Positions 56,501 through 59,500 of a stretch of DNA of 64,000 nucleotides are shown here, in pieces; positions within the stretch are counted from its first letter, which is position 1; each line of letters starts with the position of its first letter. The position numbers were made by a program. The stretch lies in NCBI RefSeq assembly GCF_003334765.1, contig NZ_QOWT01000001.1. One strand, given 5' to 3'. This DNA comes from Escherichia coli. Lineage in GTDB: Bacteria; Pseudomonadota; Gammaproteobacteria; Enterobacterales; Enterobacteriaceae.

Positions 56501-59500
56501 GATCAAGGCACATCAAATAAAATAACGATAGGTCACAACAATGAGGTTTTTATGAAAAAACTTATCGTTTCAAGTGTATTGGCATTCATAACATTTTCTG
56601 CGCAGGCCGCAGCATTTCAGGTCACTAGTAATGAAATAAAAACAGGAGAGCAACTTACAACGTCTCATGTATTTTCTGGATTTGGGTGTGAAGGTGGTAA
56701 TACATCGCCCTCATTAACCTGGTCTGGTGCTCCTGAAGGCACCAAAAGCTTTGCCGTAACTGTGTATGATCCAGATGCTCCTACAGGCAGTGGATGGTGG
56801 CACTGGACTGTTGCTAATATTCCAGCAACTGTAACATATTTGCCCGCTGATGCAGGAAGACGTGATGGTACAAAACTTCCGACTGGTGCTGTTCAAGGCC
56901 GAAATGATTTTGGTTATGCAGGATTTGGTGGAGCATGTCCTCCCAAAGGAGATAAACCCCATCATTACCAGTTTAAAGTATGGGCTCTAAAAACTGATAA
57001 AATTCCTGTGGATTCTAATTCCAGCGGAGCGTTAGTTGGTTATATGCTTAATGCCAATAAAATTGCAACCGCTGAGATAACACCAGTTTATGAGATAAAG
57101 TAGGGTAAGAGTATGCTGGCAAAAGATAAGACTAACCTAAAGATTGAAGAAATACGGATGCATAAACATCATGAGATTCACAGGGTTAAGCCTCTTATGC
57201 CAGCTTTATGTCGTATCCGTCAGGGAAAAAAAGTTATCAATTGGGAGACGCATAGTCTAACTGTTGATAATAATCAGATAATATTATTTCCCTGTGGATA
57301 TGAATTTTATATTGCGAATTATCCAGAAGCAGGTCTTTATCTTGCAGAAATGCTTTATTATCCCATTGATCTAATTGAAAAGTTTCAAAAATTTTATGCG
57401 ATAACTGATCAAATTCGTAACACGACAGGTTTCTGCTTACCTCAGAACCCCGAGTTAATATATTGTTGGGAGCAACTAAAAACATCTATTTCCCGAGGCT
57501 TCTCAACGCAAATTCAGGAACACTTAGCAATGGGCGTTCTACTTTCATTAGGAGCACATCATGTTAATTGTTTACTTTTATCAGATAGTAAACAATCATT
57601 AATAAGTCGTTGTTATAACCTAATGCTATCCGAACCTGGAACAAAATGGACAGCAAACAAGGTAGCGAGATATCTCTACATTTCTGTTTCCACATTGCAT
57701 CGCCGTCTGGCAAGCGAGGGAGTAAGTTTTCAAAGTATATTGGACGACGTGAGGTTAAATAATGCGTTGTCTGCTATACAAACGACAGTAAAACCCATCA
57801 GCGAGATTGCCAGGGAAAATGGTTACAAGTGTCCTTCTCGTTTTACTGAAAGGTTCCATAATCGTTTTAAGATAACACCAAGAGAGCTAAGAAAAGCGTC
57901 CAGAGAGTAAAAGTATTTTATGAAGGAGCAACAGCATCGATTTTTATTTTGGAAAATAAATACGGCATACTCAACCTATTGGAGTCTGAACAATCCGGTG
58001 ACTTCTGCGCTAATCGGGGACGTTTCTAAGCACATATAATTGATACTATCTTCCTCCATCACAATTTCAGAAATGCACGTGTGATTTTTTTGCATCCGGC
58101 GTTTGGACTATGTGGAGCTCAAGAGTGGGAAAGTTACAAGAGGTTGAGGGGATAATTAAAGGGATGCTTATGACATTAGATATCCGGTTAGGTGCGGATA
58201 TCGTTGTTATTAAATCTAGTTGATACGTTAAGATGCAGCTACTGACAAAATAGCCAGGACTCCACAAAACGCCTTTGTCGTAATACCTGACTGCAATATC
58301 TGGTCGATCTCGTCGCAGTAACCTACTCGATACGCCTTTGAGGCTGTTTACCAGACTGGATATCGCCAGTTTGGGAGGATAGTTAATTAACAAATGGACG
58401 TGATCTGGTCCGCCATCCATTTCAACCCGTTCAGCTTCAAAATCAGCACATACATTTGAAAAGTAAGTGCGTAGTTTTTCTGTCGCGTCATGGTCAAAAA
58501 TCTGACGTCGGTATTTAGTAACGAAGACTAGGTGAACATGCTTCAGGAAAACACAATGCCTTCCGCGTCGGATATCGGTTTCTTTTTTCATAGGCCAAAG
58601 TATGATTTGGCCCATGAAACGACTACAGGCATTCAAATTCCGGTTAAGACCAGGTGGTCAACAGGAGCGTGAAATGAGGCGCTTCGCAGGCGCATGTCGT
58701 TTCGTTTTCAATCGTGCTCTGGCGCTTCAGAATGAGAATCATGAGGCCGGTAATAAATACATCCCTTACGGGAAAATGGCTTCCTGGTTGGTTGAGTGGA
58801 AAAATGCCACTGAAACGCAATGGCTTAAAGATTCGCCCTCACAGCCATTGCAACAGTCACTGAAAGACCCTGAGCGGGCTTACAAAAACTTCTTCCGGCT
58901 TCGTCACCACGCTCAAACGGTGTGCTACCTATCGCGGCTATAAAAACAGCTTGTCCATCAGCACGATAGATAAAATAAGGCTGCTTTTTGTCGCCTTCTT
59001 TTTTCCACTCAAACCAGCCATCGGCAAAACAGATTGCCCGACCATGTTGCCAGAGCGGTTTAAACATGTGACTGGTTGCGGCAGTTTCTACGCGGGCGTT
59101 AATCAGCGGCGGTTTATCCCACCATCCGGGAGCATATCCCCAGAAAACCGGATCCAGATGAAGGTGTTCATCACGTTCACTGAGCAGAAGGACTTTGGTT
59201 CCCGGCGCGACGTTGTATCTGCCAATAGGTTCGGGATCGTAGGGAATATCGCGTTCAATATCTTCCGCGAGAAGCGCAAGGTAATCTTCACGCGTTTGGG
59301 ATTGGGCAAAGCGTCCACACATAGAAACCTCCTGAGGTCACACTGAAAAGAATAGGAGAGGGGGCGGGTTAAATCTATGTGATAGAGAGGCAACGATATT
59401 CCCGCTGTGGGCCACAGCGGGAATGAGGGATTACTTCTGAATTAAATAACGAATGGTCGGCCCGTCTTGCTGAATATCCAGCACCGTATAGCCGTGATTA

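What the first reader, a model, noticed from the sequence alone, without database searches (positions are those of the whole stretch)
58825..59322. yedK (SRAP family) truncated at the IS relic junction
The N-terminal 144 residues including the Cys2 nucleophile are intact, but the reading frame then runs into the tnpB fragment sequence and ends. The C-terminal third of the protein is missing, so the gene is probably inactive. The truncation point coincides with the end of tnpB homology, consistent with a single deletion fusing the two.
Basis: partly seen in the sequence, partly recalled or inferred. Interest (0 to 1): 0.35.

Follow-up and report, generated by a model that had tools for sequence, protein, structure and literature searches.

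The report
yedK truncated by deletion beside IS609
An E. coli DNA-repair gene (yedK) has lost its last third through a 1.2-kb deletion that fused it to a remnant of the insertion sequence IS609; about a fifth of complete E. coli genomes carry the same dead gene, and RefSeq already marks it as a pseudogene.

Summary
The ORF at 58825..59322 (-) has 165 codons. The first 142 (not 144) are YedK, with Cys2, Asn75 and Glu105. The last 23 are antisense to a tnpB fragment.

The window is E. coli chromosome (fliE-emrE-ybcL-ybcM-[IS609 relic]-'yedK-yedF-yedE). Relatives such as strain E-93 have a complete 1748-bp IS609. It sits after a TTAT that overlaps the yedK stop codon, with tnpB and a full yedK convergent. 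The window equals that arrangement minus one 1211-bp block.

- **Junction:** 58896|58897, with 1-3 nt of microhomology.
- **Lost:** IS609 nt 780-1748 and yedK codons 143-222. The lost codons include Ile147, Thr149, His160, Arg162 and Pro164.
- **Not relocated:** no trace of the C-terminus is found anywhere in the 64 kb.
- **Second deletion:** 669 bp between 8-bp repeats (GCAGCTAC) removed the other IS end and the TnpA tyrosine helix.
- **Frequency:** the yedK junction is in 1111 of 5426 complete E. coli genomes.
- **Annotation:** RefSeq marks both fragments as pseudogenes.
- **Further decay:** Q7* in one strain, R85H here.

This is an ordinary, lineage-wide pseudogene of low interest.

The parts
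58897..59322 (-). yedK remnant, codons 1-142 (Cys2, Asn75 and Glu105 retained; lineage-specific R85H and P125A)
   Evidence: tblastn 97.9% identity over residues 1-142. PDB YedK E=9e-98. NCBIfam PRK09951 profile positions 1-143 of 222, 324.6 bits, below the cut-off of 349. Allele comparison.
58825..58896 (-). Read-through tail of the fused ORF: 23 codons (GRSFCKPAQGLSVTVAMAVRANL) plus the TAA stop, antisense to the tnpB fragment
   Evidence: ORF list. This stretch aligns to IS609 tnpB and not to yedK.
58896..58897 (.). Deletion junction ...AACTTCTTCC|GGCTTCGTCACC... It joins IS609 nt 779 to yedK codon 142. The microhomology is 1 nt (C), or 3 nt (CGG) if the parental tnpB had the K-12/B type TTCCGG sequence.
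   Evidence: Three-way comparison with L001, L005 and L004 on the tnpB side and L001, L003 and L005 on the yedK side. The same junction is in 1111 of 5426 complete genomes and in the diverged carrier L006.
58614..58896 (+). tnpB (insQ) 5' fragment, codons 1-94 of 402. The RuvC part, the right end of the IS and the 3' guide-RNA region are all deleted.
   Evidence: NCBIfam guided_TnpB profile positions 1-92 of 389, 76.6 bits, below the cut-off of 100. RefSeq calls it 'incomplete; missing C-terminus'.
58235..58896 (+). IS609 relic, equal to IS609 nt 118-779 (662 of 1748 bp), lacking both ends
   Evidence: Ungapped, 95.0% identical to K-12 IS609 and 95.6% identical to the L001 copy. K-12 annotates 'insertion sequence:IS609', 1748 bp.
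58067..58591 (-). tnpA ORF of 174 aa. Only codons 1-119 (58235..58591) are IS-derived, with the HUH motif HVH present. The C-terminal helix carrying the catalytic Tyr is deleted, and the last 55 codons read into non-IS DNA.
   Evidence: NCBIfam transpos_IS200 profile positions 2-112 of 126. PDB TnpA alignments stop at query residues 118-122. Full IS609 encodes ...SSCGGAPISVIRQYIEQQ..., which is absent here.
58235..58242 (.). Second deletion junction: an 8-bp repeat GCAGCTAC. Relative to L001, 669 bp are missing: a porin-gene 5' remnant with its upstream DNA, the TTAT target, and IS609 nt 1-117.
   Evidence: One search shows both L001 copies of GCAGCTAC, at L001 3236 and 3905. The left junction is present in 1106 of 5426 genomes.
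59328..59333 (-). Intact Shine-Dalgarno (AGGAGG) 5 nt upstream of the yedK ATG, so the fused ORF can probably still be translated
   Evidence: Read directly from the sequence.

Best explanation
This is a dead remnant of yedK made by one illegitimate deletion. An ancestor of this E. coli lineage carried a complete IS609 inserted after the tetranucleotide TTAT that overlaps the yedK stop codon. That placed tnpB and yedK tail to tail. A single 1211-bp deletion with only 1-3 nt of microhomology then joined IS609 nt 779 (tnpB codon 94) to yedK codon 142. It removed the 3' three quarters of tnpB, the right end of the IS, and yedK codons 143-222. The junction is not at an IS end, so the deletion was not made by the transposase. 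The resulting ORF keeps its ribosome-binding site and encodes 142 YedK residues plus 23 unrelated residues. It lacks half of the DNA-binding and active-site apparatus and should not shield abasic sites. A separate 669-bp deletion between 8-bp repeats removed the other IS end, so the IS is also immobile. Both lesions were inherited, or spread by recombination, and are now in about 20% of complete E. coli genomes. Shown here: the anatomy, the junctions, the comparators and the frequency. Inferred: the order of events, the single-step nature of the deletion, and the loss of function.
For: Strains with the intact arrangement are L001 and L005, where tnpB is complete and yedK encodes 223 aa. The IS609 boundaries and the TTAT target come from comparing an empty site, an occupied site and the K-12 copy. 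The window is colinear with L001 apart from the block L001 4567..5777, and the junction sequence is read. Neither the yedK C-terminus nor the tnpB 3' part is found anywhere in the 64 kb. The same junction occurs in 1111 of 5426 genomes and the left junction in 1106. The yedK 3' 242 bp is found in 4153 genomes, never more than once, and 4153 + 1111 is less than 5426. RefSeq flags both fragments as pseudogenes. Decay after the deletion includes Q7* in L006 and R85H in the window lineage. R85A weakens ssDNA binding from Kd 2.2 to 16.9 uM (PMC6821365). Substitutions between the window and L006 run at 2.1-2.4% in the two remnants, against 0.16% and 0.97% in the flanks. The functional weight of the lost residues is documented: T149A and R162A abolish ssDNA binding, and Ile147, Thr149 and Pro164 line the crosslink pocket (PMC6821365); H160A and H160Q crosslink about 10-fold more slowly (PMC9436759).
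Against: Both IS ends are missing in the window, so it cannot be shown directly that its IS609 copy once sat at the same TTAT as in L001. The relic is only 95.6% identical to the L001 copy, so it may be a different IS609 lineage. One study found that H160A did not reduce crosslink yield (160% of wild type, PMC6821365), so loss of His160 alone would not prove inactivity. No expression or activity data exist for the 165-aa product. The check that carriers lack the yedK 3' end rests on totals across genomes, not on each genome separately.
Confidence: 0.92

Rival explanations
1. Simple frameshift: the YedK C-terminus is still present in another frame just downstream.
For: None.
Against: tblastn of the YedK C-terminal 87 residues and of full YedK finds nothing beyond residue 142 anywhere in the window, with best E>1. 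blastn of the 243-bp 3' part finds only chance 13-25 nt matches. The DNA downstream of 58897 aligns ungapped to IS609.
Confidence: 0.005
2. Insertional truncation: IS609 transposed directly into yedK codon 142 and no deletion of yedK occurred.
For: An IS fragment abuts the break point.
Against: The junction is at IS609 nt 779, inside tnpB, and not at the left or right end. The native yedK sequence at the break (AAAAATCCTTC|GG) has no TTAT target. The distal part of yedK is absent on the far side of the relic, where ybcM follows. In relatives, IS609 sits at the yedK stop codon.
Confidence: 0.01
3. Multi-step origin: the same end state was reached by two or more successive deletions or by recombination with another IS609 copy, rather than by one deletion.
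For: The locus has clearly suffered several independent deletions: the porin body, the 669-bp left deletion, and IS2 and IS903B insertions in some carriers. The relic differs by 4.4% from the L001 IS copy. A cluster of 14 differences at 58520-58652 between two carriers suggests gene conversion.
Against: The spread listings show no intermediate structure. The window is perfectly colinear with the intact arrangement on both sides of a single break. The two junction counts nearly coincide (1111 and 1106).
Confidence: 0.05
4. The truncated 165-aa product is still made and keeps a function, for example a slow Cys2-dependent reaction with abasic sites or a dominant-negative effect.
For: The start codon, the Shine-Dalgarno and Cys2, Asn75 and Glu105 are intact. 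The ORF is open in the window lineage. A terminator-like hairpin follows its stop. An N-terminal YedK peptide does react with abasic sites, though 2-3 orders of magnitude more slowly than the enzyme (PMC9436759).
Against: Thr149 and Arg162, the phosphate anchor essential for ssDNA binding, are lost, as is half of the pocket (PMC6821365). Arg85, which stacks on DNA, is replaced by His in this lineage, and another carrier has Q7*. That is the pattern expected without selection. The substitution density is raised in the remnant.
Confidence: 0.03

Closest known systems
E. coli K-12 YedK (b1931), SRAP-domain abasic-site crosslinking protein; structures 6NUA, 6KBS, 6KCQ and 2ICU
   Same: Residues 1-142 are 96-98% identical. 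The chromosomal position downstream of yedE-yedF is the same. Cys2, Asn75 and Glu105 are retained.
   Different: Residues 143-222 are deleted and replaced by 23 unrelated residues. Ile147, Thr149, His160, Arg162, Pro164, Arg206 and Asn210 are lost. The allele carries R85H and P125A. It scores below the NCBIfam cut-off.
IS609 (IS200/IS605 family) as annotated in E. coli K-12 at ydcL-ydcO (yncK pseudogene plus insQ), 1748 bp
   Same: Window 58235..58896 aligns without gaps to IS609 nt 118-779 at 95% identity, with the same divergent tnpA/tnpB arrangement.
   Different: Only 38% of the element remains. Both ends, the TnpA tyrosine helix, the TnpB RuvC domain and the 3' guide-RNA region are gone. 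Unlike the K-12 and E-93 copies, this tnpA has no internal stop codon.
The IS609-yedK arrangement in E. coli strains E-93 and ET846 (NZ_CP112988, NZ_CP100895)
   Same: The neighbours and gene order are the same. This is the probable parental structure.
   Different: There, IS609 is complete at its tnpB end and YedK is full length, with one added Cys because the insertion splits the stop codon. The window lacks 1211 bp on one side and 669 bp on the other.

Membership tests
SRAP / YedK family (NCBIfam PRK09951) | Significant sequence homology to YedK | tested here: met
   E=9e-98 to PDB YedK chains. tblastn gives 97.9% identity over residues 1-142.
SRAP / YedK family (NCBIfam PRK09951) | N-terminal Cys2 nucleophile directly after the initiator Met | tested here: met
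   The translation begins MCGRF.
SRAP / YedK family (NCBIfam PRK09951) | Active-site Asn75 and Glu105 | tested here: met
   LIN75AR and WFE105W are present in the translation. Their roles are described in PMC9436759.
SRAP / YedK family (NCBIfam PRK09951) | Active-site His160 | tested here: not met
   Homology ends at residue 142, and no C-terminal match is found anywhere in the window.
SRAP / YedK family (NCBIfam PRK09951) | Phosphate anchor Thr149/Arg162 and crosslink pocket Ile147/Pro164 | tested here: not met
   These residues are deleted. Their roles are described in PMC6821365.
SRAP / YedK family (NCBIfam PRK09951) | Whole-protein score at or above the curated cut-off | tested here: not met
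   324.6 bits against a cut-off of 349, covering profile positions 1-143 of 222.
IS200/IS605 family insertion sequence (IS609) | Y1 transposase TnpA with the HUH motif | tested here: met
   NCBIfam transpos_IS200 at 124 bits. DHVHLL is read from the translation.
IS200/IS605 family insertion sequence (IS609) | TnpA catalytic tyrosine in the C-terminal helix | tested here: not met
   The profile is covered only to position 112 of 126. The IRQYIEQQ segment of full IS609 is absent.
IS200/IS605 family insertion sequence (IS609) | Complete TnpB with the RuvC nuclease domain | tested here: not met
   Only profile positions 1-92 of 389 are matched, at 76.6 bits against a cut-off of 100.
IS200/IS605 family insertion sequence (IS609) | Left and right ends, with the left end flanked by the TTAT target | tested here: not met
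   The relic is IS609 nt 118-779 only. The ends and target are seen in relatives L001 and L004.

The most novel reading that the evidence does not exclude
Loss of YedK may not be neutral. The deletion allele, fixed in about a fifth of sequenced E. coli, could have been selected, or the retained and still translatable 165-aa Cys2-bearing fragment could have a residual or dominant-negative activity. A possible selective reason is that removing abasic-site shielding changes how often translesion synthesis is used, and so changes the mutation rate.
Probability: 0.04. Interest if true: 0.4.

Novelty: already known. Interest (0 to 1): 0.1.

Why it matters
The practical value is small. The finding shows that the SRAP protein YedK is dispensable in nature, because at least 1111 of 5426 complete E. 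coli genomes carry this exact dead allele. About 160 more genomes lack the yedK 3' end for other reasons or are too diverged to match. This gives natural yedK-null backgrounds for anyone studying abasic-site tolerance. It also flags an annotation issue: the neighbouring tnpA is called intact in RefSeq although it lacks its catalytic tyrosine. Nothing here challenges what is known about SRAP proteins or IS200/IS605 elements.

Tried and rejected
1. BLAST suggested a 13-bp overlap at 58884-58896 between the tnpB and yedK alignments, which hinted at a long direct repeat. Base-by-base comparison showed this was a gapped-alignment artefact, and the exact microhomology is only 1-3 nt.

2. I searched for the deleted yedK and tnpB parts elsewhere in the window, as protein and as DNA. 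Only chance matches appeared.

3. The sigma-70 promoter scan of 58000-59700 found no site, so nothing can be said about yedK's own promoter.

4. Literature searches for 'yedK' with 'pseudogene' and for 'IS609' found no paper describing this allele.

5. I considered TnpB/guide-RNA cleavage of the flank as the cause of the deletion. I rejected it as untestable and unlikely. The deletion removes part of tnpB itself. The guide's target also has its TTAT motif next to it only after the IS has been excised.

6. I did not assign the carrier genomes to phylogroups. The 24-kb search showed only that many unrelated-looking isolates from humans, poultry, dogs and water are 100% identical here.

Full report
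**The observation.**
The window holds an ORF at exactly 58825..59322 on the minus strand. It has 165 codons, an ATG at 59322 and a TAA stop at 58825-58827. An AGGAGG ribosome-binding site lies 5 nt upstream, at 59328-59333.

A full-length YedK taken from an E. coli strain without any IS at this locus (strain 4750, 222 aa) aligns by tblastn to 59322..58897. The match covers residues 1-142 at 97.9% identity, E=3e-93. Against solved structures the ORF matches YedK chains 6kcq, 2icu and 6nua at about E=1e-97.

Cys2, Asn75 and Glu105 are present. Codon 143 spans the junction and reads Gly, where native YedK has Glu.

**Where the window comes from and what surrounds the ORF.**
The region is E. coli chromosome. 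Many complete genomes are 100% identical over 24 kb. The gene order is fliF-fliE-emrE-ybcL-ybcM-tnpA-tnpB'-'yedK-yedF-yedE-yedD-amyA.

RefSeq already annotates the two fragments in such genomes as pseudogenes. The tnpB piece is called 'helix-turn-helix domain-containing protein, incomplete, missing C-terminus'. The yedK piece is called 'SOS response-associated peptidase family protein, incomplete, missing C-terminus'.

**The parental structure.**
Strains E-93 (L001) and ET846 (L005) have a full tnpB (402 aa in E-93) convergent with a full yedK at the same locus.

I compared L001 with the K-12/B copy of the element at ydcL-ydcO (L004). K-12 annotates that copy as 'insertion sequence:IS609', 1748 bp. 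I also compared L001 with an empty site (L003). Together these define the element as L001 3788..5535, running CCGGTG...GATGTCAA. It is inserted after TTAT in the sequence GGCTTAT|CAAACAGG.

The last T of that TTAT is the complement of the final base of the yedK TGA stop codon. In IS-bearing strains YedK therefore gains one residue and ends ...QPVC, 223 aa.

**The junction.**
- Window 58235..58896 aligns without gaps to L001 3905..4566, which is IS609 nt 118-779.
- Window 58897 onwards aligns to L001 5778 onwards, which is yedK.
- The sequence reads tnpB ...ACAAAAACTTCTTCC | GGCTTCGTCACC... yedK.
- The parental sequences are ...CTTCTTCC|AGAATC (or |GGAAGC in the K-12/B type copy) on the tnpB side and ...AAATCCTTC|GGCTTCG on the yedK side.
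- The exact microhomology is therefore one C, or CGG at most.
- The 13-bp overlap suggested by BLAST was a gapped-alignment artefact.
- The missing block is 1211 bp: 969 bp of IS609 (nt 780-1748) and 242 bp of yedK.

The break lies inside tnpB and there is no TTAT on the yedK side. This is therefore an illegitimate deletion and not a transposition end-product.

**The refutation test.**
The YedK C-terminus is not present in another frame. Searches with the C-terminal 87 residues, the whole protein and the 243-bp DNA find nothing better than chance anywhere in the 64 kb.

Across complete E. coli genomes, the 242-bp yedK 3' segment is found in 4153 of 5426 genomes. It is never present more than once, and the places listed lie under a yedK or SRAP-peptidase annotation. 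The junction is found in 1111 genomes. The two sets can be disjoint, because 4153 + 1111 = 5264. That fits loss rather than relocation. It is a test on totals, not on each genome separately.

**The other side of the relic.**
The IS609 homology also stops abruptly at 58235. Relative to L001, 669 bp are missing between two copies of GCAGCTAC, at L001 3236 and 3905. The missing DNA is the first codons and upstream region of a porin gene, the TTAT target, and IS609 nt 1-117. The porin gene is still whole in strain 4750.

The lost IS segment encodes the TnpA C-terminus ...SSCGGAPISVIRQYIEQQ..., which carries the catalytic tyrosine. The window's 174-aa tnpA ORF covers only positions 2-112 of the 126-position IS200 transposase profile. 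Alignments to solved TnpA structures stop at residues 118-122. Its last 55 codons are read-through into non-IS DNA.

This left junction is present in 1106 genomes, a number close to the 1111 with the right junction; I did not check that they are the same genomes.

**Is the remnant inactive?**
The deleted third contains several residues with documented roles:
- Thr149 and Arg162 form the phosphate anchor, and their alanine mutants abolish ssDNA binding (PMC6821365).
- Ile147 and Pro164, with Thr149 and Trp103, line the pocket that holds the thiazolidine crosslink (PMC6821365).
- His160 is the general acid for ring opening. H160A and H160Q are about 10-fold slower (PMC9436759), although one study saw no loss of end-point yield (PMC6821365).
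- Arg206 and Asn210 contact the 3' DNA (PMC6821365).

The remnant scores 324.6 bits against a curated cut-off of 349.

Changes since the deletion point the same way. The window lineage carries R85H, and R85A raises the Kd from 2.2 to 16.9 uM (PMC6821365). It also carries P125A. Another carrier, CUVET20-PYO1, has Q7* and I74V. Between these two carriers the substitution density is 2.4% in the IS relic and 2.1% in the yedK remnant, against 0.16% and 0.97% in the flanks. The numbers are small, but the pattern is that of unconstrained sequence.

**Frequency.**
Of 5426 complete E. coli genomes, 1111 (20%) carry this junction. About 1080 more hold at least 80% of the 1.7-kb query in several pieces. 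By subtraction from the 2193, these are genomes with IS609 next to an intact yedK. The remainder, including K-12, O157:H7 and LF82, have no IS609 at yedK.

**Comparison with what is known.**
Everything here belongs to well-described kinds. The gene is a truncated copy of YedK, a characterised SRAP protein. The IS is a doubly truncated IS609 of the IS200/IS605 family. The remnant fails the membership tests that need the C-terminal third, so it is a pseudogene derived from yedK and not a functional family member. I found no paper describing the allele, but RefSeq annotation already records it.

**Verdict.**
The feature is ordinary and of low interest.

Noticed in passing
window 58067..58591 (-): The tnpA ORF (174 aa) is annotated as an intact IS200/IS605 transposase in RefSeq (WP_001347174.1). 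Only codons 1-119 are IS609-derived. The helix with the catalytic tyrosine (IRQYIEQQ in full IS609) is deleted, and the last 55 codons read into flanking DNA. Unlike the K-12 and E-93 copies, it has no internal stop.
   Followed up: yes
window 58235..58242; L001 3236..3243 and 3905..3912: A second deletion of 669 bp lies between 8-bp direct repeats GCAGCTAC. It removed the IS609 left end and a porin-gene 5' remnant. Its junction count (1106 genomes) is close to that of the yedK junction (1111 genomes).
   Followed up: yes
L001 3784..3788 and 5532..5540; L003 4766..4772: In relatives with complete IS609, the element sits after a TTAT that overlaps the yedK TGA stop codon, so YedK is extended by one Cys (223 aa). 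The flank next to the IS right end, from which a TnpB guide would be expected to be taken, is then antisense to the end of yedK.
   Followed up: partly
window ~55300..58234; L003 2993..4255; L007 4601..6781: The fliE-yedK interval is a variable island. It holds emrE-ybcL-ybcM here, plus a porin gene in strain 4750. K-12 has yedL, yedN and intG ('cryptic prophage PR-G') at this place. From my own knowledge, K-12 carries emrE, ybcL, ybcM and a porin gene in the DLP12 prophage. This suggests a decaying lambdoid prophage remnant.
   Followed up: partly
window 58806..58824 (-): A terminator-like hairpin (GCCATTGCGTTTCAGTGGC followed by ATTTTTCC) lies immediately after the stop codon of the fused ORF, inside antisense tnpB sequence. 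This is a consensus match only.
   Followed up: no
window 58520..58652, compared with L006: There is a cluster of 14 substitutions in about 130 bp between two carriers of the same deletion, around the tnpA and tnpB starts. It may reflect gene conversion from another IS609 copy.
   Followed up: no
E. coli genome collection; NZ_CP020025 strain WB61: The yedK 3' 242 bp is missing from 1273 of 5426 complete genomes. This junction accounts for 1111 of them. About 160 therefore lack it through other lesions or are too diverged to match, for example strain WB61, where only part of the segment matches.
   Followed up: no
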